46,192 bases of DNA. Origin: Solirubrobacterales bacterium. Lineage in GTDB: Bacteria > Actinomycetota > Thermoleophilia > Solirubrobacterales > Solirubrobacteraceae. The stretch covers positions 1 through 46,192 of the forward strand of contig JAFMRN010000001.1 in NCBI GenBank assembly GCA_017354065.1, written 5' to 3'. The notes under the pieces are model-generated. The model worked only from the letters and a program-made list of their open reading frames with translations. It had not been told where the DNA came from and did no database searches. The position numbers and the translations under genes were made by a program. Below are positions 26,404 through 46,192 of the stretch, in pieces (the stretch's first letter is position 1; each line of letters starts with the position of its first letter).

Positions 26404-29400
26404 GTGTCTGAGCGGACCCTATGTCCCTATTGCGGCGTCGGCTGCGGTTTGCGTGTCAGCGTCGACGGCGGTCGTGTGTCAGCTATCACAGGTGACGACG
26501 ATTACCCGGTTAACCGTGGGCGCACGTGTCGCAAGCCGCTGGAGCTTGCTGCCGCGGTGCACGCCCCGGACCGCGCGACAAAAGTCTTGAAACGCGCTGG
26601 TCCAGGTGCTGGCTTTGAGTCCAGCACCTGGGATGTGGCCTTGGCGGAGCTCGGTTCCAGGCTGGCGGCCTACGCGCCGGAGGAGATCGGCTTCTACATC
26701 TCCGGGCAGCTGCTGACCGAGGACTACTACGCGGTCAACAAGCTGGCCAAGGGCTTCCTGGGCACTAACAACGTCGACTCGAACTCGCGCCTGTGCATGT
26801 CCTCGGCGGTCGCCGGCTACAGCGGCGCGTTCGGGTTCGACGGCCCGCCCTGCTCCTATGAGGACATAGACGTCGCCGACTGCTTCCTGTTGCTCGGCTC
26901 AAACACGGCTGCCTGTCATCCAATCGTGTTCTCCCGGATCCGCGACCGCCAGCGGGAGGGGGCTTCGATCATCTGCCTGGACCCGCGCGCGACGCCGACG
27001 GCCCGAGCCGCGGACCTGCACGTGCCGCTGGCGCCGGGCACCGACTTGGCATTCCTCAACGCGATGCTGTGCGTGCTGGATGCCGAGGGCCTGCTGGACC
27101 AGAGCTTCATCGCCGCGCATGTCAGCGGCTTTGAGGAGGTCCTGTCGGTCGCACGCGAGTGGACCCCCGAACGGGCCGCGGAGGTCTGCCGCGTGCCAGC
27201 CGCGCTGGTGGTGGAGGCCGCCAACCGGTTCGGCTCCGCCGGCGCGGCCATGGCGCTGTGGTCGATGGGCGCAAACCAGTCCACGGTCGGGACGCTGAAG
27301 AACCGGGCGCTGATCAACCTGTGTCTCGGCACCGGCAACTTCGGCCGTGCCGGTGCGGGCCCGTTCTCCCTGACCGGACAGCCGAACGCCATGGGCGGCC
27401 GTGAGACCGGCGGTCTGGCACACCTGCTGCCCGGCTACCGCCGGATCGACGATCCTGCGGCGCGGCGCGCGGTCGCGGAGCACTGGGGCGTGCGCGAGCT
27501 CGATCCCACGCCCGGGCTGCCCGCCGTCGAGATGTTCGAGCCGGGCCGTCTGAAGGCGATCTGGATCGTCGCGACCAACCCGGTCGTGTCGATGCCCGAC
27601 AGCGCTCGTGTGCGTGAGGCGCTGCGTCGCGCCGAGCTGGTCGTGGTCCAGGACGCGCACCACCCGACCGAGACCAGCGCCTTTGCCGACTACGTGCTGC
27701 CCGCCGCCGCCTGGCCGGAGAAGGAGGGCACGATGACCAACTCCGAGCGGCGCGTCGGGCTGGTCAGGAAGCTGCTGAACCCGCCCGGGGACGCGCGTCC
27801 CGACTGGCAGATCTTCGCCGGTGTCGCGGCCGAGCTGGGCCACGCTGAGGCGTTCGCCTGGCCTGACGCGGCGGCCGTCTACGCCGAGTACGCGGCACTC
27901 ACCGCCAACCGGCCCAACGACGTCTCAGGCCTGACGCACTCGCGCCTGCGCCGTTCCGGCCAGGGCGTGCAATGGCCCTGTCCGGCGCCGGGCCATCCCG
28001 GGACCGCAAGGCTCTATGCCGGCGGTGTGGTGCCCGGCGCGCCCGACGGCCGCGCGGTCGCGACCGGCACACCGCACACTGACCCGGCCGAGACTCCCGA
28101 TGCGAAGTTCCCGCTGCTGTTGACCACCGGCCGCGTGGCCGACCAGTGGCACACGATGAGCCGCACCGGCAAATCCGAACGCCTGCGCGCCGCGGCCGGA
28201 GACCCGCTGCTTGAGATCCACCCGGACGACGCCAAGCGCTGCGGCGTCAAGGACGGCGGGCACGCGCTGGTGCGCTCACGCCGTGGCGAGCTGAGCATGC
28301 GCGTGAAGGTTACGGACGCGATCACGCGCGGCGTTGTCTTCGCGCCGTTCCACTGGGGCGGGCTGTTCGCGGACGCCGGCTCTGGAGCGTTGAACGCGGT
28401 ATCGCATCCGAGCGTCGATCCCACCTCCAAGCAGCCGGAGCTGAAGGCGATCGCGGTCTCCGTCGCCGCGACGGTGCGGAACCGGCCGGTGCGCTCGGTC
28501 GACTCGCACTCGGTCGCGCGGCTGACCCGGGAGCTGGTGATAGTCGGCACCGGCATGGCCGGCATGGCCGTCGCGGAGGAGGTCGTGCGGCGCCGCTCCC
28601 CGGCGGAGTGGCATGTGACGATGCTCGGGGCCGAGCCGGCCCGGCCGTATAACCGGATCATGGTCTCCAAGCTGCTGGCCGGCACCCTGAGCCGGCCCGA
28701 CCTGGACCTGAAGCCGGTCGAGTGGTTTGACCAGCGCCGCATCAGCCTGGAGACCGGCGTCAGCGCCGAGGCGGTTGACACTGACGCGCAGGTGGTACAC
28801 GACAGCCACGGGAACGCCCACCGTTATGACGCGCTGGTGATCGCGACCGGGTCACGCCCGTTCGTGCCGCCCGTACCGGGTGTCGAGTCCGAGCATGTGC
28901 ATTCCTTCCGTACGGTTGACGACGTCGCCGAGTTGCATCGGCGCGTCGACGCCGGTGGGCGCCGGGCCGTCGTGGTGGGCGGCGGCCTGCTGGGCCTGGA
29001 AGCAGCCGCGGGCCGCAAGGCCCGCGGCGCAAGTGTGACCGTCATCGAGCGCGGTGACCGGCTGATGCCAGCGCAGCTGAACGCCGGTGCGGGCGCGCTG
29101 CTCTACAGGGAGCTTGCCGCCCAGGGCTTTGACCTGCGCGTGAGCTGCAGCGTGGCCGGGATCGAAGCGGACGCCGTGTTGCTGGACGACGGTGAGCGGA
29201 TCGACGCGGACCTGGTGGTGATGGCCGCGGGCGTGGCGCCGGAGACCGGCCTGGCCCAGCGCGCGGGGCTGCGCTGTGGGCGCGGGATCGTGGTTGATGA
29301 CGAGCTGCGGACGTCCGCGCCGCACGTCTATGCCGTCGGAGAGTGCGCGGAGCACGCCGGCCGCGTTTACGGGCTGTGGGCCCCGCTGGCCGAGCAGGCC

Positions 29401-39178: not shown

Positions 39179-41065
39179 TTGGTGAGCTACGAGCAGGTGT
39201 TCTCTGCAAGCATCGGTGACCCGGAGGCCTACTGGGCGGGTAACGCCGAGGCGATTGACTGGATCAGGAAGCCGGCACGGGTCCTCGATAACAGCCGGCC
39301 GCCGTTTGCCCGCTGGTTCCCCGACGGGGTGCTGAACACGGCCGCCAACGCACTTGATCGACACGTCGATGCAGGTCGTGGTGAGCAGGCGGCGCTGATC
39401 TACGACAGCCCGGTTACCGACACCAAGAAGACGATCAGCTACCGCGAGCTGCGCGACCAGGTGGCGCGCTTTGCCGGGGCGCTGGCCCGGCTCGGTGTCG
39501 TCAAGGGCGACCGGGTCGTGATCTACATGCCGATGGTCCCGGAGGCCGCGGTCGCGATGCTCGCCTGCGCGCGGCTGGGCGCGATCCACTCGACCGTGTT
39601 CGGCGGCTTCGCCTCACCCGAGCTTGCGGTCCGGATCGATGCCGCCGCGCCAAAGGTCGTCGTGTCGGCCTCCTGCGGGGTCGAGGGCAGCCGCGTGCTC
39701 CCCTACAAGCCCCTGCTCGACCGTGCGATCGAGCTCTCCTCCTACAAGCCCGAGCACTGCGTGATCCTGCAACGGCCCCAGGCCGAAGCCGAACTGCAGG
39801 CCGGGCGCGACCACACCTGGGCGGACTCCGTGGCCTATGCGGAACCGGTCCCTCCGGCCGAGGTGGCCGCGACGGACCCCCTGTACATCCTCTACACGTC
39901 CGGCACGACCTCGACGCCGAAGGGTGTCGTGCGTGACAACGGCGGACATGCCGTGGCGCTGTGCTGGAGCATGGAGGCGATCTTCGACACCCAGCCCGGT
40001 GACGTGTTCTGGGCCGCGTCCGACGTCGGCTGGGTGGTCGGACACTCCTACATCGTCTACGGGCCGCTGCTGGCAGGCGCGACCACGGTGCTGTATGAGG
40101 GCAAGCCGGTGGGCACACCGGACCCGGGTGCCTTCTGGCGAGTGATCTCCGAGCACAAGGTCAACAACCTGTTCACGGCGCCGACGGCGCTGCGCGCGAT
40201 CAAGAAGGAGGACCCTGAGGGCACGCACACCCGTCGCTACGACCTCTCGAGCCTGCGCCACCTGTTCCTGGCCGGCGAGCGCCTGGATCCGGACACCTAT
40301 CAGTGGGCTTCGGACCTGCTGGGCGTGCCGGTGATCGACAACTGGTGGCAGACCGAGACAGGCTGGCCGGTTGCGGCCAACTGTCTTGGCCTGGGCGCTC
40401 AGCCGCTGAAGGCCGGATCGCCGACCAAACCGGTCCCGGGTTATGACGTGCGGATCCTGAAGGAGGACGGGACCGACGCGGCGCCCGGCGAGGAGGGCGC
40501 GATTGCGATCCGCGAGCCGCTGCCGCCCGGCACTCTGCAGACGCTGTGGCAGGACGACGAGCGCTGTAAGCGCTCCTACTTCACAACCTACCCCGGCTAT
40601 TACCTGACCGGTGACGGCGGCCGGTTCGACCAGGACGGGTACCTGTTCGTGCTGGGGCGCATGGACGATGTGATCAACGTCGCCGGGCACCGGCTCTCCA
40701 CCGGAACGCTGGAGGAGTCCCTGGCCCGGGATCCGGAGGTCGCCGAGGCCGCGGTGATCGGCGTGGCCGACGAGCTGAAGGGCCAGGTGCCGGTCGGCTT
40801 CGTGGTGCTGAAAGCCGGCGAGCACGGCGATCCTGAGGCGCTGCGTAAAGCGCTGGTGGCGCGTGTCCGCGCGGACGTCGGTGCCGTCGCCGCGTTGAAG
40901 CAGATCGAGATAGTGCCGCGGCTGCCGAAGACACGCTCGGGCAAGATCCTGCGTGCGACCATGCGCGCGATCGCCGAGGGACGGGAGTACAAGGTGCCCT
41001 CGACGATCGACGACCCGGCCGTACTGGATGAGATAGCGGCTCTGTTCAGCGCCTCAGCCGCGTGA
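39179..41065 (+). CDS. prpE: Propionyl-CoA synthetase
   Basis: YILYTSGTT..PKGVVRDNGGH, WAASDVGWVVGHSYIVYGPL, DNWWQTETG, LPKTRSGK. GGAGGA RBS; start TTG 39179 or GTG 39182. Confidence 0.88.
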   Translation: MVSYEQVFSASIGDPEAYWAGNAEAIDWIRKPARVLDNSRPPFARWFPDGVLNTAANALDRHVDAGRGEQAALIYDSPVTDTKKTISYRELRDQVARFAGALARLGVVKGDRVVIYMPMVPEAAVAMLACARLGAIHSTVFGGFASPELAVRIDAAAPKVVVSASCGVEGSRVLPYKPLLDRAIELSSYKPEHCVILQRPQAEAELQAGRDHTWADSVAYAEPVPPAEVAATDPLYILYTSGTTSTPKGVVRDNGGHAVALCWSMEAIFDTQPGDVFWAASDVGWVVGHSYIVYGPLLAGATTVLYEGKPVGTPDPGAFWRVISEHKVNNLFTAPTALRAIKKEDPEGTHTRRYDLSSLRHLFLAGERLDPDTYQWASDLLGVPVIDNWWQTETGWPVAANCLGLGAQPLKAGSPTKPVPGYDVRILKEDGTDAAPGEEGAIAIREPLPPGTLQTLWQDDERCKRSYFTTYPGYYLTGDGGRFDQDGYLFVLGRMDDVINVAGHRLSTGTLEESLARDPEVAEAAVIGVADELKGQVPVGFVVLKAGEHGDPEALRKALVARVRADVGAVAALKQIEIVPRLPKTRSGKILRATMRAIAEGREYKVPSTIDDPAVLDEIAALFSASAA

Positions 41066-41105: not shown

Positions 41106-42221
41106 ATGGGACGGCTTGCATCTGTCGCGATCGGAGATACCCCGGACGAAATCATCAGCGCTGCGGTCCAGGCCAGCCGGGAGCACCTGGGCATCGATGC
41201 TGCCTTCGCCGCGGTAGACACCAGCGCTGACGGCTATGCGATGTCGGCGCTGGCCGGCGTCAACAACGAGCGGATCTTCCGCCAGCTCGTGGTCCAGTCC
41301 GGCCGCGGACTGGGCGGGCGGGTGCTGGTCGAAGGTCACCCCATGTGGCTGCCGAGCTACCCGGCCGCCGACAACATCTCCGACCACTACAAGCCGATCC
41401 TGGCGGCCGACCGGCTCCAGGCGGTGGCCTGCGTGCCCGTGGTCGGCCCGGACGGATACGTGTGCCTGCTGTATGCCGCCTCCCGCGCCGAGGAGAACTT
41501 CGGTGACAGGTTCCTGGCCGAGCTGGAGCGGATCGGTGACTACACCTCAGTCGGACTGCACAGTCTGGCCTCACGCAAGCAGGAGCTGGAGCTGGAGCGT
41601 CTGCGCGACCGCGAGCGGATCGCCACGCGCGTGCACGACTCGGTGGCGCAGCTGCTGTTCGGAATCGGCGTGCTCGCGCGCCAGTCCCGGGAGGAGGTCA
41701 ACCCAGACGTTCTGACCGAACGGATGGCGGAGATTGAGGCGACCTCCGCCGACGCGCGGCGCGAGCTGCGCGAAGCGCTCAGCTCGCTCAGCCAGTTTCC
41801 GGAGGAGGTCTCGTTCCTGGCGGTGTTCGACGCCGAGGTTCGCGTCTGGCAGCGCAGCACCGGGCGGCAGGCCTACATCACCCGCTCCGGTGAGCCCTGT
41901 GTTATGGCACCCGCGGTGGAGGAGCTGTTGATCGACACGCTGCGCGAGGGGTTGCGCAACGCCGACAAGCACACCCGCGCGGGGCTGGCGGTCGTCCATC
42001 TGGGCTTTGAACAGGACCGCGTAGTGCTGGCGATCCAGACGGAGCGTCCCAACGCATACGCGGGTGAGACCGCCGATCGCGCGGCGGTGCTCGTCCCGGG
42101 GTCGGGCCTCTGGGCGTTACGTGAGCGGGTCCGGCGCCTGCGCGGCGAGCTGGAGCTGGCGATCCGTGAGGAGCTTGCCGCGTTGCGGGTTGAGCTCCCG
42201 GCCGCAGCTGCCGGCGCCTGA
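41106..42221 (+). CDS. Soluble GAF-domain sensor histidine kinase (HisKA_3, NarX/DosS class)
   Basis: GAF (GRGLGGRVL...VACVPV), H-box DRERIATRVHDSVAQ, N-box REGLRNADKH, GSGL..LRERV. No TM segment. Confidence 0.87.
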   Translation: MGRLASVAIGDTPDEIISAAVQASREHLGIDAAFAAVDTSADGYAMSALAGVNNERIFRQLVVQSGRGLGGRVLVEGHPMWLPSYPAADNISDHYKPILAADRLQAVACVPVVGPDGYVCLLYAASRAEENFGDRFLAELERIGDYTSVGLHSLASRKQELELERLRDRERIATRVHDSVAQLLFGIGVLARQSREEVNPDVLTERMAEIEATSADARRELREALSSLSQFPEEVSFLAVFDAEVRVWQRSTGRQAYITRSGEPCVMAPAVEELLIDTLREGLRNADKHTRAGLAVVHLGFEQDRVVLAIQTERPNAYAGETADRAAVLVPGSGLWALRERVRRLRGELELAIREELAALRVELPAAAAGA

Positions 42222-42859
42222 TGCGGGCCCTGGTCGTAGACGACCATCCGGTCGCCCGCAGCGGCGTACGCGCACTTCTGCAGCTCGGCTTCAGGCCCGA
42301 GCCGGTGGACGTCGTGGAGATCGAGCGCGGCGACCAGGCGGTGCAGAGCGCCCGCGCGCACCGGCCCGACGTGATCACGCTCGACCTTGACCTGCCGGGC
42401 GAGCCGAACTCAAACACGCTGTGTGGGCTGCTGCATGCGGCCGTGCCCTCGGCGCGGATCCTGATCGTGACCGCGTTTGACCGTCCGACGGAGATCAAGC
42501 GCTGCCTGGCGGCCGGCGCCAACGGCTGCCTGCTGAAGGACACGCGTGAGTCCGACCTGGTTGACGGCGTCCGCGCCGTGTTGCGCGGGGAGACGGTGAT
42601 GGATCCGCGGATAGCCCAGGAGCTGGCGACTGACATGGTCGGGATCCTCCAGCACGGTGAGGAGCCTGTGCACCTGACGCCGCGTGAGCGCGAGGTGTTG
42701 GCTTTGCTGGCGGAGGGGTGCTCCAACAAGGCGATAGCGGACCGGCTGTACCTGTCCGAGCCGACGATCAAGGGACACGTCCGCAGCCTGCTGGAGAAGC
42801 TCGGCGCCGAGTCCCGGCTCCAAGCCGTGGTCGGCGCGATCAAACGCGGACTGCTATGA
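42221..42859 (+). CDS. NarL/LuxR family response regulator
   Basis: VVDDH, PDVITLD, LLK; HTH LTPREREVL.LLAEGCSNKAIA..L.LSE.TIKGHV. TGATG-coupled to the kinase. Confidence 0.94.
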   Translation: MRALVVDDHPVARSGVRALLQLGFRPEPVDVVEIERGDQAVQSARAHRPDVITLDLDLPGEPNSNTLCGLLHAAVPSARILIVTAFDRPTEIKRCLAAGANGCLLKDTRESDLVDGVRAVLRGETVMDPRIAQELATDMVGILQHGEEPVHLTPREREVLALLAEGCSNKAIADRLYLSEPTIKGHVRSLLEKLGAESRLQAVVGAIKRGLL

Positions 42860-44668
42860 GCTGAGCAGCGCGCTCAGCTCCGCGAGCGCGTCCGGCAGCG
42901 CCGCCGCAAAGGCCTCCAGGCCGGCTGCCGCGGATTTGGGGGTCGCGAGATACAGGTCAAAGCGGTTGCGCCGCAGCGAGTAGCCGACGCCGAGGCAGTC
43001 ACCGCCAGTCGCGCCGAAGCCGAACACCTGGATCAGGTCGGAGGGCAGGGAGCTGGTGGACATCGCATCGGCGCGCATCACGCGCCAGCCCGGCGAGTCA
43101 TACAGGGCCGGCGTCGGTTCGCCGTGGCGCTGGATGCGCAGGCCCAGCTCCCAGAGGTGCTGTTCGGGGGCGTCACCTGACTGGCACTGCTTGACCCGCG
43201 CGATGTGCGCCGCCGCGGCGGCGTCAAACGCGGCGCGGCGCGCCTCTCTGGGGCTCGCCGGGTCACCCATCAGCTCGACGAAGTGGGCCAGCTCCGGGGT
43301 GATGACGCGCATCGCCTCGGTGCGCCCGTGCTTGTAACCGCGCGTCGCGATCGACTCATAGGTGGCGCCGATCCGGCCCTTCGCGCGCACATGCGCCAGC
43401 TGGAAGGCGATCTGGACGAACGCATCCGGTGAGACACCCAGGGCTTTGCTGTTCTCGCTGGTGAAGTCCTTGACGCGCAGCAGCCGGGTCGCGGTGTCGG
43501 CGCTGTAGGCGGCGAACTCCTCCGCCGCGCGAGTGACGGTCGCCGTCAGCGCACGGTCCATCGTGAACTCGACCTGGGTCAAACGCGGGACCGCCTGACC
43601 GCTGGCGATCGCGCGGGGATCGGAGGTTTCATCTGACGGCGGGTCCCAGGCGAGCATCGCCTCGGCGGCCGCCAGCAGCGAGGTGCCATCCAGCAGCGAA
43701 TGCTCCCCGTTGAGACCTGCCGTCCCGTCGGCGAACACGATCAGGGACAGCGCCTTGTCAAAGAAGCGGTTCGTGCTGTCGCCGGCCAGCAGGTCATGGC
43801 AGGCGGCGTCCGGGTCAGCGGGCGTGTGGTCATCGAGCGACAGGCAGAACAGCGCCCGCTCAACCATGTCCAGCTGGTGCTTGTTGTGCTCATCACAGGC
43901 CAGCAGCGCGCTGCGGGCGTTGGCCCAGTCGGCCCTGGCCATGGTGGTCAGCGGGCCGATCGATGTGCCGGCCGGCGCGTGCTCGGCGCCGGCCGTGATG
44001 ATGCTCTGGAGCTCCGCGGTCAGCGCCCGCATCGGAAACGGGTTCCCCTGCTGGTCGAGTACATCCATGGCGAACAGGTGCCCGCGGCGGAACACGACGA
44101 TGTGGTGCGCGTCTGAGGGATCGCGCCAGTCTGCGCTGTAGGGAGTACGCACCGTGTCCTGCTCTAGACCCGGGATCCGGGTGGTCGAGAAGACGTGCTT
44201 GAGTTGCACCATCGACTGTGGGCGCCCGCCGCGGACGGTTGGTGGGACGCTGCCTGCCTCGATCGCCCGTTTGAACTCCACGGCCGAACGGATCAGCTCG
44301 GCCGCGCGGGTGATCTGATCAGAGGTGCCGTCCCGAAACAGGAAGAAGAAGTTCGCGTTGAGCGCGATCCGGTCCCGGCGCCCCAGATAGCGGCTTCTCC
44401 AGAAGTCATCCAGCCAGCTGGCGCCGCGCTGCTCGGCTTCCTCGCGCTCGAGTTCCGCCTGGGCGCGGCGAGCAGGTCCATCCGCTGCCTGGAACTCGGC
44501 TGCCGCCCGGCGGGTGTCAGCGCGTTGCTCCGCGTCCAGCAGCGGGTCTGACCATTCCAGGAACCGCTCAACGGATCGCTCCAGCGTCGGCAGCGGGACC
44601 CGCGGAAGCGAGTCCTCATTTCCGAACGTCCGCGGCGAGATGTCGCTCGTGGGCATCTGAGCGGTCAA
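42854..44668 (-). CDS. Choline/carnitine O-acyltransferase
   Basis: SLPRVPLPTLE, WLDDFW..YL, TRIPG, NRFFDK, GLNGEHSLLDG (catalytic His), SPDAFVQIAFQLA, TYES, GRTE, STS. Confidence 0.92.
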   Translation of the reverse strand: MTAQMPTSDISPRTFGNEDSLPRVPLPTLERSVERFLEWSDPLLDAEQRADTRRAAAEFQAADGPARRAQAELEREEAEQRGASWLDDFWRSRYLGRRDRIALNANFFFLFRDGTSDQITRAAELIRSAVEFKRAIEAGSVPPTVRGGRPQSMVQLKHVFSTTRIPGLEQDTVRTPYSADWRDPSDAHHIVVFRRGHLFAMDVLDQQGNPFPMRALTAELQSIITAGAEHAPAGTSIGPLTTMARADWANARSALLACDEHNKHQLDMVERALFCLSLDDHTPADPDAACHDLLAGDSTNRFFDKALSLIVFADGTAGLNGEHSLLDGTSLLAAAEAMLAWDPPSDETSDPRAIASGQAVPRLTQVEFTMDRALTATVTRAAEEFAAYSADTATRLLRVKDFTSENSKALGVSPDAFVQIAFQLAHVRAKGRIGATYESIATRGYKHGRTEAMRVITPELAHFVELMGDPASPREARRAAFDAAAAAHIARVKQCQSGDAPEQHLWELGLRIQRHGEPTPALYDSPGWRVMRADAMSTSSLPSDLIQVFGFGATGGDCLGVGYSLRRNRFDLYLATPKSAAAGLEAFAAALPDALAELSALLSS

Positions 44669-45519
44669 CCGGCCAGCCCGTCGCTGGAGGCCTCATCGCC
44701 CCTGTGCAGGTCGGAAAGCCGGCCGAACAGCTGACGCGTGCGGGTCGGTGTGCCGACCACGCCGGGGGCAGACGCGTAGGCGAAGATCGCGGTGTGCCGC
44801 TCCTGGTGCCCTTCCACGGTGGTCACGCGGTGCAGGGAATAGCGGCCCCGGAACAGCTGTAGGTCGCCGATCCGCGGGCGCATCCGCCGGACCAGGTGCG
44901 GTGCTCGGCCGGCCAGCACGTCGGCCACGGCGGACTGGTTCTCGCTCTGGGGAGACCGGATCCCGGGGCAGAACTGGAACTCGCCACCGGCCTCCGGTGC
45001 CTGGGTCAACATGCTGACCGTGAACTCGTTGGTGTCGAAGTGCCAGGGGTGCGCGTTCCCGGGCTCCAACACGTTGAACACCAGCGCAGACAGGGGGTCG
45101 GCCAGCTCATGGATCTCGGGCAGCTCAAAGCAGTCGGCCAGGAACCGCTGGAACGCGCGGTTGGTGTACAAGCTCTGTACCACCGAGTCCTCGGGGATCA
45201 GGTCCCGCGCGACAAACGCGTTGCCGCGTCTCAGGGCTACGTGCGCCGGATGCTCCGCCGGGAGCGACGGGTCCGGCGCGGTGTTGTAGACATTGACGGT
45301 CTCAGTCCCGTGGTGCGCCCAGGGCGCGACACCGACGCCGGCCTCGGTGAACAAGTCCAGCTTGTCCGGTGCGACGAAGTCCGCCAGCACGCTGCAACCG
45401 CTGGCGCGAAGCTGTCTGCGGATGGCGGTGACGACGTCCGCGTAACCTGGTGAATCGGGCTCTGAGAGCGGGTAGCGGTCCTCATTGATGATTGCCGCGC
45501 TGGGGCTCAGAGTGCTCAT
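44665..45519 (-). CDS. Fe(II)/2-oxoglutarate-dependent dioxygenase (BesD/HalD-like fold, HxD hydroxylase type)
   Basis: WHFD, GGEF, GDLQLFRG, LHRVT..R facial-triad and 2OG motifs. Start set at ATG 45519. Stop overlaps the acyltransferase start (TTGA). Confidence 0.83.
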   Translation of the reverse strand: MSTLSPSAAIINEDRYPLSEPDSPGYADVVTAIRRQLRASGCSVLADFVAPDKLDLFTEAGVGVAPWAHHGTETVNVYNTAPDPSLPAEHPAHVALRRGNAFVARDLIPEDSVVQSLYTNRAFQRFLADCFELPEIHELADPLSALVFNVLEPGNAHPWHFDTNEFTVSMLTQAPEAGGEFQFCPGIRSPQSENQSAVADVLAGRAPHLVRRMRPRIGDLQLFRGRYSLHRVTTVEGHQERHTAIFAYASAPGVVGTPTRTRQLFGRLSDLHRGDEASSDGLAG

Positions 45520-45539
45520 CTGAACGACCGTCTCAGGTG

Positions 45540-45555
45540 TGTGCCCTTGCTCACA
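45540..45555. promoter_or_regulatory. CRP/GlxR-like site upstream of the dioxygenase
   Basis: TGTGC-N6-TCACA (9/10 match to TGTGA-N6-TCACA). Confidence 0.5.
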
Positions 45556-45663
45556 AGAGAGCGGGGTGAACCCCTCCCAACGGATGGGACCCATTAGGTC
45601 CAAAGGAACGGAGATCGCCCGGTTGTATGAACGCGCGGTGAATTCGCGCGAGCTTTGGCGAAC

Positions 45664-45681
45664 TGTGAGACGCTTCTCACA
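45664..45681. promoter_or_regulatory. Palindromic operator upstream of the acyl-CoA synthetase
   Basis: TGTGAGA-CGCT-TCTCACA, 9 nt before ATG 45691. Confidence 0.5.
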
Positions 45682-45690
45682 ACGAGTCAG

Positions 45691-46192
45691 ATGAGCGCTA
45701 ACCCGCAAACCCCCGCCTTTGCCGACCACCTCCGACCGGGCCGCGACGCCGCGCCGCGGTCAGGCGACTACGCCGGTGAGCGCGCACGCTTCAGGGTCGA
45801 GGCCCGCGAGCGCTACAACCCGGTCCTGGCGATCGTCGAATCCTGGGCCAGGGAGGACCCTCAAGCCCCGGCCGTGCTGTCACTCGACGCCGCCGGTGAG
45901 ATCGTCGCCGAGCAGACCGCGGCCGACTTGGCCGCGGCGTCGCGCAAGGCGGCGCGGGCGCTGCTGGCGGCCGGGATCGGCAAGGGTGACCGGGTGTTCG
46001 TGATGCTCGGCCGGGTGCCCGCCTGGCATGCGGCGATGCTCGGGGCTATGCGGATCGGTGCGGTGCCGATGCCCGGCCCAAACCTGCTGACGCCAAAGGA
46101 CATCGCGGACCGGCTGACACGCGCCGGGGCCAAGGCCGCGATCACGGACACGGCCGGTGCGGAGAAGGTCGACGCCACCGGGGTGGAGCTTC
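45691..46192 (+). CDS. Acyl-CoA synthetase (ACSM/medium-chain type), 3'-truncated by window edge
   Basis: Not in the ORF track; translated by hand: MSANPQ...RYNPVLAIVESWARED...GIGKGDRVFVMLGRVPAW...RIGAVPMPG...LTPKDIADRL, open to the window end. Confidence 0.85.
   Translation, partial: MSANPQTPAFADHLRPGRDAAPRSGDYAGERARFRVEARERYNPVLAIVESWAREDPQAPAVLSLDAAGEIVAEQTAADLAAASRKAARALLAAGIGKGDRVFVMLGRVPAWHAAMLGAMRIGAVPMPGPNLLTPKDIADRLTRAGAKAAITDTAGAEKVDATGVEL

What the first reader, a model, noticed from the sequence alone, without database searches (positions are those of the whole stretch)
42854..46192. Fe/2OG hydroxylase coupled to a carnitine/choline acyltransferase, flanked by acyl-CoA synthetases: candidate bacterial acyl-carnitine-like pathway
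Seen: the dioxygenase (HFD...H) stop overlaps the start of a full-length acyltransferase that retains the catalytic EHxxxDG and the STS motif. A divergent ACSM-type ligase, PrpE and a two-component system are adjacent. Known: this acyltransferase family is mainly eukaryotic and sparse in bacteria; STS contacts carnitine; BesD-fold enzymes act on free amino acids such as lysine; eukaryotic carnitine synthesis uses Fe/2OG hydroxylases of a different family. Inference: the dioxygenase installs a hydroxyl on an amine or quaternary-amine substrate and the transferase acylates it, giving an acyl-CoA buffer or a new small molecule. I know of no characterised example.
Basis: partly seen in the sequence, partly recalled or inferred. 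Interest (0 to 1): 0.75.

Follow-up and report, generated by a model that had tools for sequence, protein, structure and literature searches.

The report
Actinobacterial carnitine-like acylation gene cassette
An iron hydroxylase gene and an animal-type carnitine acyltransferase gene sit back to back here and in many other actinobacteria, usually with a methyltransferase gene that this copy lacks, and together they likely build and acetylate a carnitine-like molecule that is probably not carnitine itself.

Summary
A BesD/HalD-fold Fe/2OG hydroxylase (D, 45519-44665, HFD...H) runs into a full choline/carnitine acyltransferase (AT, 44668-42854). Linkage is very tight: 79 of the 80 closest D loci have AT within 1.4 kb, and in 381 genomes of one actinobacterial class all 24 close D copies lie just upstream of AT. 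It also missed a Crp-type site upstream (52 of 78 loci against 23 of 461 controls; three matches here). The flanking ligases and two-component system are not conserved. AT has Gln in place of the carnitine-carboxylate Arg (56 of 56) and a bulky acyl-pocket residue. Sister hydroxylases sit with betaine/DMSP-type transporters, DddP-like lyases and a CntA-like oxygenase. Best reading: methylate, hydroxylate, then O-acetylate a betaine, giving a carnitine analogue that buffers short acyl-CoA. The substrate is inferred, not shown. No paper found.

The parts
44665..45519 (-). D: BesD/HalD-fold Fe(II)/2-oxoglutarate dioxygenase, 284 aa, hydroxylase-type H160-x-D162...H230; R98 aligns with the substrate-carboxylate Arg83 of HalB; Thr163 in place of the alpha-amine Asp
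   Evidence: HalB Arg83 from PMC10041140 passages
42854..44668 (-). AT: choline/carnitine O-acyltransferase family, 604 aa; catalytic H323, STS 537-539, RTE 449-451; Q503 at CrAT R518, F549 at CrAT M564, T554 at CrAT V569; family-invariant R93
45540..45555 (.). Crp/GlxR-type site (TGTGA-N6-TCACA, one mismatch), 21-36 nt upstream of the D start codon
   Evidence: consensus recalled; binding untested
45664..45681 (.). two overlapping Crp-type matches (45664-45679, 45666-45681, one mismatch each) inside an 18-bp near-palindrome just upstream of the divergent ligase
   Evidence: only 39 such matches in the 2.5 Mb assembly
45688..46192 (+). divergent AMP-binding (acyl-CoA ligase) gene, cut by the contig end; shares the intergenic region here but is not part of the conserved cassette
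41106..42859 (+). GAF histidine kinase and NarL/LuxR-type regulator (MadS/MadR-like), convergent on AT; local neighbour, not conserved with the cassette
39179..41065 (+). acetate/propionate-CoA ligase (PrpE-like); local neighbour, not conserved with the cassette

Best explanation
The hydroxylase and acyltransferase are the two-gene form of a conserved actinobacterial cassette (hydroxylase, SAM-methyltransferase, acyltransferase) that likely makes an O-acetyl or O-propionyl ester of a hydroxylated betaine, a carnitine analogue predicted to buffer short acyl-CoA under probable Crp control. Shown: gene identity, linkage, the third gene, the Crp-type site, the active-site changes. Inferred steps: (1) the methyltransferase fully N- (or S-) methylates an amino (or thio) acid to a betaine; (2) D, anchoring the carboxylate on Arg98/His157, hydroxylates the carbon two atoms from the onium centre; (3) AT reversibly moves a short acyl group from CoA to that hydroxyl. 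AT has lost the carnitine-carboxylate Arg and gained an invariant Arg93 and a polar G-[SA]-T-S loop, so the carboxylate probably sits elsewhere than in carnitine. Candidates: 4-hydroxyproline betaine, 4-hydroxy-5-trimethylammoniovalerate, 5-hydroxy-trimethyllysine, 2-hydroxy-beta-alanine betaine or 2-hydroxy-DMSP; carnitine itself is the lesser option (about a third of this reading). This copy, without the methyltransferase, would use an imported or separately made betaine.
For: Linkage: 79 of 80 D loci have AT within about 1.3 kb downstream, 78 on the same strand and one convergent; the remaining locus ends 1.1 kb after D. Unbiased draw of 381 genomes: 25 carry PF00755, 24 carry a close D, and all 24 D lie 546-1533 nt upstream of AT on the same strand; the one genome with AT alone has a distant AT that keeps DRH. 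AT-linked D form one clade (19 rows, SH-aLRT 96, quick tree). Methyltransferase: 65 of 80 loci and intact in 23 of 24 cassettes; class I SAM fold, best Z 13.3; one open frame with AT in L060 and L226; 74 of 80 methyltransferase-centred metagenome loci hold D and/or AT. No transporter, exporter or assembly line recurs around the cassette, which fits an intracellular product. Crp-type site in 52 of 78 upstream regions against 23 of 461 other upstream regions and 3.9 in shuffles; this genome encodes a Crp-family protein. Onium context of sister D: DddP-like lyase plus a ProXWV-type transporter whose binding protein is closest to DMSP-binding DmpX (L198); DddP-like neighbours in L104, L106, L107, L199 and by eye L111; CntA-like Rieske plus MttB (L263); MttB (L262). 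AT keeps H323, STS, TYES and RTE; F/W at the M564 position in 56 of 56 suggests short acyl chains. The genome has OpuAC-type ABC binding proteins.
Against: No activity data; no step is shown. The methyltransferase's closest folds are generic and tied, so N-methylation is unproven, and stand-alone homologues at 34-49% occur without D or AT. This genome shows no methyltransferase homologue (76.6% complete); 13 full-length loci also lack it, and of 5 such genomes searched 2 have none and 3 only a distant paralogue. The onium contexts are from D at 30-50% identity in other clades. Deeper D (about 30%) sit in histidine-utilisation-like and arginase clusters or beside formaldehyde-activating enzyme, which suggests N-demethylation instead. 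One test of the proline-betaine idea failed: the enolase-family gene in L199 is not HpbD-like. T554 and nearby polar residues replace the hydrophobic trimethylammonium wall, which could mean a non-quaternary amine. The window's AT departs from the family at 21 of 209 near-invariant columns (others 0-12; a low-GC, probably gammaproteobacterial copy 18), so this copy may have drifted.
Confidence: 0.55

Rival explanations
1. The cassette makes a small specialised metabolite from a non-quaternary substrate, in gene order: D hydroxylates an amine or amino acid, the methyltransferase adds one or more methyls (N, O or C), and AT O-acylates; or D hydroxylates the newly added methyl group, which AT then caps.
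For: Gene order is usually D-MT-AT. MT and AT share one frame in L060 and L226, and G473 has an MT-AT copy without D. The AT amine pocket is more polar than CrAT's. Deeper D relatives look like N-methyl hydroxylases (Fae and hut-like contexts). Stand-alone MT homologues also lie beside other 2OG oxygenases (L202 annotated; L205 and L193 by motif).
Against: No exporter, resistance gene or cluster regulator recurs. A Crp-type site suits carbon-status control better. The MT can be lost while D-AT stays (13 loci, this window, G820), which is easier to explain if D takes an already methylated substrate. The nearest non-AT D clades are in onium-uptake clusters.
Confidence: 0.22
2. D and AT scavenge environmental gamma-butyrobetaine or carnitine: D is a non-homologous BBOX, AT is a true carnitine acetyltransferase, and the methyltransferase is an optional add-on.
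For: A D homologue (30%) lies directly before a CntA-like carnitine monooxygenase, and others follow beta-hydroxyacid dehydrogenases (L103, L108). AT keeps the Tyr, Ser and Thr of the carnitine site and STS. Two-gene forms exist.
Against: Gln replaces the Arg found in CrAT, CrOT and CPT2 (DRH) in 56 of 56 cassette ATs, whereas a stand-alone bacterial AT keeps DRH. No betaine transporter is linked to the cassette. The methyltransferase is present in 23 of 24 unbiased cassettes, so it is hardly optional.
Confidence: 0.13
3. The cassette is real elsewhere, but this horizontally gained copy is decaying or repurposed: it has lost the methyltransferase and its AT is drifting.
For: AT was found in 0 of 40 relatives and 1 of 140 family members. 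It shows 21 departures at near-invariant columns, including W302F, C324S and Y535A. No MT was found in the assembly.
Against: Both frames are intact and coupled; all catalytic motifs are kept; D has only 2 departures (family median 1); the Crp-type site is kept; another transferred copy (L167) departs almost as much and shares Y535A; G820 in the same family also has the two-gene form.
Confidence: 0.1

Closest known systems
Eukaryotic carnitine system: gamma-butyrobetaine hydroxylase (BBOX) plus carnitine acetyltransferase CrAT (PDB 1ndb, 1nm8), CrOT (1xl7), CPT2 (2h4t)
   Same: An Fe/2OG hydroxylase would create the acceptor hydroxyl and a PF00755 enzyme with catalytic His and STS would move acyl groups to and from CoA; AT matches CPT2 at E 1e-69 and CrAT at about 1e-59.
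   Different: The hydroxylase is BesD-fold, not BBOX/TauD-type; a dedicated small-molecule methyltransferase is in the operon; AT has Gln for the carboxylate Arg518, Phe for Met564, Thr for Val569, and an invariant Arg93; bacteria have no organelle shuttle to serve.
BesD/HalA/HalB/HalD amino-acid halogenases and lysine hydroxylase Hydrox/LDO (PDB 6nie, 7u6i, 7u6h, 7jsd)
   Same: Same fold (Z 22.0; Foldseek E 1e-15), H-x-W-H motif, and carboxylate Arg position (HalB Arg83).
   Different: 15-21% identity; HxD hydroxylase triad; Thr163 for the alpha-amine Asp and Leu143 for the distal-amine Glu (roles recalled); a different lid (RQLFG); not in a halogenated-amino-acid cluster.
Choline acetyltransferase: animal ChAT (PDB 2fy2) and commensal hexapeptide-repeat ChATs (PMC13391359)
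   Same: AT shares the animal ChAT fold (E 2e-49) and, like ChAT (Asn, recalled), lacks the carboxylate Arg.
   Different: AT keeps the carnitine-type R-T-E motif; the bacterial ChATs in that paper belong to the hexapeptide-repeat family, an unrelated fold; making acetylcholine would need no hydroxylase.
Bacterial onium catabolism: DddP DMSP lyase, DmpXWV transporter (PMC10030565), CntA carnitine monooxygenase, MttB demethylases
   Same: Sister clades of D are encoded beside homologues of these proteins.
   Different: Those clusters carry transporters and LysR regulators and no acyltransferase; the DddP-like neighbours score 287-355 bits against a cut-off of 600; the cassette here looks biosynthetic.

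Membership tests
BesD/HalD-type Fe/2OG enzymes | BesD fold and Pfam PF23169 above cut-off | tested here: met
   53.5 bits against 26; Z 22.0, rmsd 3.4, 233 aligned to 7u6i; top Foldseek rows all BesD family
BesD/HalD-type Fe/2OG enzymes | Halogenase HxG/A triad | tested here: not met
   H160-F-D162, Asp invariant in 124 of 124 aligned sequences: hydroxylase-type, as in 7jsd
BesD/HalD-type Fe/2OG enzymes | Substrate-carboxylate Arg on the lid hairpin (HalB Arg83) | tested here: met
   R98 aligns with the R of Hydrox RNLSVV and HalA RRMSVV, at least 90% conserved; by sequence alignment, not superposition
BesD/HalD-type Fe/2OG enzymes | Asp after the triad that binds the alpha-amine of a free amino acid (role recalled) | tested here: not met
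   WH-G/D-D in BesD-family chains against WHFDT here; T163 at least 90% conserved
BBOX/TMLH (eukaryote-type carnitine hydroxylases) | TauD/GBBH Pfam domains | tested here: not met
   only HalD and WelO5 models hit at E up to 0.1
Choline/carnitine O-acyltransferase superfamily | Full-length PF00755 with catalytic His (CrAT H343) and STS | tested here: met
   511 bits; H323 and STS in 56 of 56; role of H343 read in PMC11852590 section 3
Carnitine acyltransferases (CrAT/CrOT/CPT2) | Carboxylate-binding Arg in DRH (CrAT R518; role recalled) | tested here: not met
   EQH in the window and Q in 56 of 56 cassette ATs, against DRH in 1ndb, 1xl7 and 2h4t
Carnitine acyltransferases (CrAT/CrOT/CPT2) | TYES and R-T-D/E motifs (CrAT Y452, S454, T465; roles recalled) | tested here: met
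   ATYES and GRTE; Y and T in 56 of 56, S in 53 of 56
Carnitine acyltransferases (CrAT/CrOT/CPT2) | Acyl transfer to L-carnitine | not testable with these tools
   needs an enzyme assay
Choline acetyltransferase (animal type) | Val-Asp-Asn in place of Thr-Asp/Glu-Thr together with loss of the Arg (motif recalled) | tested here: inconclusive
Class I SAM-dependent methyltransferases (partner gene, not in this window) | Rossmann-like class I fold with acidic residues of motifs I and II | tested here: met
   model pLDDT 91.7; the 50 rows listed are class I methyltransferase-type folds at Z 11.9-13.3; D62 and D123 invariant in 27 of 27; Pfam hits under cut-off or marginal
Class I SAM-dependent methyltransferases (partner gene, not in this window) | Repeated N-methylation of a small amine | not testable with these tools
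   fold matches are tied and mixed in chemistry

The most novel reading that the evidence does not exclude
Soil actinobacteria make their own carnitine-like acyl carrier from scratch with three enzymes (a new betaine-forming methyltransferase, a BesD-fold betaine hydroxylase and a retuned animal-type acyltransferase) and use it as a cAMP/Crp-controlled acetyl-CoA buffer: a bacterial, independently assembled counterpart of the acylcarnitine system built on a different molecule. The same hydroxylase family would also open unknown breakdown routes for betaines or DMSP-like compounds together with DddP-like lyases.
Probability: 0.35. Interest if true: 0.85.

Novelty: new variant of a known kind. 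Interest (0 to 1): 0.68.

Why it matters
Carnitine synthesis and acyl-carnitine buffering are usually treated as eukaryotic, with bacteria only importing or degrading carnitine (own knowledge). A compact three-gene cassette in Streptomyces, Amycolatopsis, Lentzea, Pseudonocardia, Actinomadura, Frankia and others would give bacterial PF00755 enzymes a defined pathway, and name a function for two large unannotated families ('arpA'/HalD-like, 2238 hits; the methyltransferase, 3499 hits). It is directly testable with three soluble enzymes. An acyl-CoA buffer in antibiotic producers would bear on precursor supply. It also warns that NCBI's 'HalD/BesD family halogenase' label for these proteins is wrong in chemistry, since they carry the hydroxylase triad.

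Tried and rejected
Flanking ligases and two-component system as part of the pathway: rejected (the kinase also has no match at E 1e-20 in 40 relatives). Halogenase: rejected (HxD). Long D-MT and D-AT 'fusions' P0256 and P0279: read as frameshifted gene calls, not fusions. A search for longer AT forms (1058-3020 aa) gave only one fish protein; weak evidence, and it could not see the roughly 900-aa MT-AT form. Proline-betaine support from the L199 enolase-family gene: not found. Rfam: 0 matches in the window. Sigma-70 promoter scan: 0 sites; one terminator-like hit inside AT, at chance level. BCCT transporter: not found in this incomplete genome. AT on plasmids: no match. Sequencing runs: no RNA holder listed. 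BBOX/TMLH chains were not among the 50 fold matches listed for D, which does not exclude them. The careful tree did not finish; the quick tree was used. No structure of AT was predicted (both jobs went to D and MT), so the role of Arg93 is inference only. No complex prediction was run, as binding is not claimed. Literature searches found no paper on this cassette, judged from listings and abstract starts; one search was swamped by genus names and is weak. Two searches for CrAT residue numbers found nothing, one search gave one review, and the primary CrAT/ChAT/CPT2/BesD structure papers were not held. Subscription papers and supplements were not seen.


Full report
Observation. The window is a whole 46,192-nt contig of a 76.6%-complete assembly. 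On the minus strand, 45519-44665 encodes a 284-aa protein (D) and 44668-42854 a 604-aa protein (AT). D's TGA overlaps AT's TTG (TTGA); an ATG at 44656 is the alternative start. D hits Pfam HalD (53.5 bits, cut-off 26) and AT hits Carn_acyltransf (511 bits, near full model). D's model (pLDDT 92.4) is closest to HalB (Z 22.0, next row 15.9) and the BesD family. AT is closest to CPT2, CrAT, CrOT and then ChAT. The neighbours are a truncated AMP-binding gene, a MadS/MadR-like pair and an acetate/propionate-CoA ligase, each under the cut-off of its best-named family.

Linkage. 79 have it within about 1.3 kb downstream, 78 on the same strand and one convergent (L079); L066 ends too soon. As an unbiased check, 381 genomes of one actinobacterial class were searched both ways. 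PF00755 occurs in 25 and D homologues in 26, of which 24 are close (over 440 bits). All 24 lie 546-1533 nt upstream of AT on the same strand. The two distant D have no AT, and the one genome with AT alone (G265) has a distant AT. A phylum-wide draw of 400 gave the same picture: 3 AT, 2 of them beside D, and 16 genomes with D, 14 of them distant and without AT. AT-linked D form one clade in a quick tree of 82 rows (support 96). In the window's own lineage the pair is rare: AT in 0 of 40 relatives and 1 of 140 family members, G820, where it again follows D. Patchiness suggests horizontal gain; no donor is claimed.

The missing third gene. Clustering the neighbours showed only one other recurrent gene, about 270 aa, lying between D and AT or after AT. 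It is in 65 of 80 loci; 2 of the 15 without are cut short. In the unbiased set it is intact in 23 of 24 cassettes; G473 has a remnant there and a second MT-AT copy elsewhere. It shares one open frame with AT in L060 and L226. Its model (pLDDT 91.7) is a class I SAM-methyltransferase with no close solved relative (Z up to 13.3, tied). Starting from this gene, 74 of 80 metagenome loci hold D and/or AT and six stand alone at 48-49%. It was not found in the window's assembly or beside the pair in G820. Of five cassette genomes lacking it locally, three have a distant paralogue and two none. The ligases and two-component system do not travel with the cassette, and no transporter, exporter or assembly line is a fixed neighbour; ABC ATPase genes occur in 18 of the loci but at varying positions and strands.

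Regulation. Upstream of D, TGTGA-N6-TCACA (the Crp/GlxR consensus, recalled) with at most two mismatches occurs in 52 of 78 loci, against 2.7 in random windows, 3.9 in shuffles (maxima 8 and 10) and 23 of 461 other upstream regions. Spacers of 4 and 8 also score (37 and 28), probably because the sites are TG/CA-rich and overlap. The window's 168-nt intergenic stretch holds three of the 39 one-mismatch matches in the 2.5-Mb assembly, and the assembly encodes a Crp-family protein. Binding is untested.

Active sites. D has the hydroxylase triad H160/D162/H230 and R241. R98 aligns with the hairpin Arg that binds the substrate carboxylate in HalB (Arg83; PMC10041140, passages seen; alignment). The Asp that binds the alpha-amine and the Glu that binds the distal amine in BesD (roles recalled) are Thr163 and Leu143; Tyr78 and Asp141 are invariant. 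So the substrate is likely a carboxylate without a free alpha-ammonium. AT keeps H323, TYES, RTE and STS. Numbering 1ndb with an offset of 29 reproduces H343 (role read in PMC11852590, section 3 part 1) and puts Q503 at R518, F549 at M564 and T554 at V569. CrAT, CrOT and CPT2 all have DRH there; 56 of 56 cassette ATs have EQH, F or W at 549, T554, and an Arg at 93. The distant stand-alone bacterial AT keeps DRH. The roles of R518, M564 and V569 are recalled; the primary papers were not held. The reading is a short acyl chain and an acceptor whose carboxylate sits differently from carnitine's, or has none. The window's AT is the most divergent tested (21 of 209 near-invariant columns, L167 18, others 0-12), while its D is typical.

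What the wider D family does. The nearest non-AT contexts are catabolic. On a Caballeronia plasmid, D (50%) follows a divergent LysR and precedes a DddP-like M24 enzyme and a ProXWV-type transporter whose binding protein best matches 7yle, the DMSP-binding RnDmpX (PMC10030565 passages). DddP-like neighbours recur in L104, L106, L107 and L199 (287-355 bits, under the DddP cut-off of 600). Others follow beta-hydroxyacid dehydrogenases (L103, L108) or sit with MttB and a CntA-like Rieske enzyme (L263, L262). Against a simple story, the deepest clade (about 30%) sits by formaldehyde-activating enzyme, arginase or what look by eye like histidine-utilisation genes, which suggests N-demethylases. The common thread is N- or S-methylated acids.

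Mechanism. Most likely (0.55): the methyltransferase forms a betaine, D hydroxylates it two atoms from the onium centre, and AT reversibly O-acetylates it, giving an intracellular, Crp-tuned acyl-CoA buffer or solute. A carnitine analogue fits better than carnitine. 4-Hydroxyproline betaine would satisfy BesD-like C4 chemistry, the lost alpha-amine contact and a relocated carboxylate, but my one test of it failed. A 2-hydroxy three-carbon betaine or sulfonium would tie in with the DddP/DmpX contexts but needs a different binding mode in D. Rivals: a specialised metabolite from a non-quaternary amine (0.22), carnitine scavenging (0.13), and a decaying local copy (0.10).

Comparison and novelty. 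It works like the end of eukaryotic carnitine synthesis plus CrAT, but D is not BBOX and AT fails the carboxylate-Arg test, so it is not filed as a carnitine acetyltransferase; D is BesD-fold but fails the halogenase and alpha-amine tests. Known bacterial choline acetyltransferases are hexapeptide-repeat proteins (PMC13391359, passages). The BesD-like lysine hydroxylase can oxidise twice, to the ketone (bioRxiv 2025.01.27.635104, first part of two read), which could matter for the DddP-like clusters. A SAR11 island paper names BBOX and carnitine genes but, in the passages seen, not this family (PMC12421898). Searches showed no description of the cassette; closed-access papers were not searched. 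Earlier scan notes on other bacterial acyltransferases and on SAR11 hydroxylases were leads only. Verdict: a real, tightly conserved, apparently undescribed three-gene pathway, here in a two-gene form; new variant of a known kind; interest 0.68.

Noticed in passing
L198:5930-12059 (Caballeronia plasmid); also L104, L106, L107, L111, L199: LysR, D homologue, DddP-like M24 enzyme under the DddP cut-off and, in L198, a DmpX/ProX-like ABC transporter: a candidate undescribed hydroxylase-plus-lyase route for a betaine or DMSP-like compound.
   Followed up: partly
L290:6173-12876, L291:3845-7696, L266:7193-10434: Distant D homologues (about 30%) next to genes that look by eye like histidine utilisation (ammonia-lyase, urocanate hydratase, imidazolonepropionase): candidate methylhistidine demethylases. 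Not scanned against families.
   Followed up: no
L200:5114-9841 (Pantoea plasmid): LysR-D pair beside arginase, citrulline hydrolase and an amino-acid ABC transporter; D homologues are on 70 Pantoea plasmid records: candidate methylarginine demethylase.
   Followed up: no
L115:6180-7593, L116:6126-7456: Distant D directly followed by formaldehyde-activating enzyme (Pfam Fae confirmed for L116).
   Followed up: partly
L263:4326-10721 (Mesorhizobium plasmid): MttB, Ldh-family oxidoreductase, D homologue, CntA-like Rieske oxygenase and a binding protein in one run.
   Followed up: partly
L167:5070-8657, L169: The full three-gene cassette on a 56% GC metagenome contig that looks gammaproteobacterial (by eye, not tested); its AT shares Y535A with the window's.
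   Followed up: partly
L202:1097-12228, L205:6883-10400, L204:6385-9684: Stand-alone methyltransferase homologues lie beside sarcosine oxidase/purU and a 2OG oxygenase, beside a DMT exporter, an HxD...H protein and an EutA-like gene, or beside a P450-like gene and another methyltransferase.
   Followed up: no
P0365, P0390, P0362: Long D homologues that look eukaryotic (algal-like extensions); P0362 joins a PhyH domain to a HalD-like domain.
   Followed up: no
window:26404-33010: Nitrate/nitrite assimilation-like genes (large molybdo-oxidoreductase, NirB/NirD-like) followed by a truncated-globin-like ORF, read by eye; another one-mismatch Crp-type match lies at 26475.
   Followed up: no
window:35237-38950: CoA-transferase family III gene, then a ferredoxin-reductase and fatty-acid desaturase pair: the contig end is rich in acyl-CoA metabolism.
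   Followed up: no
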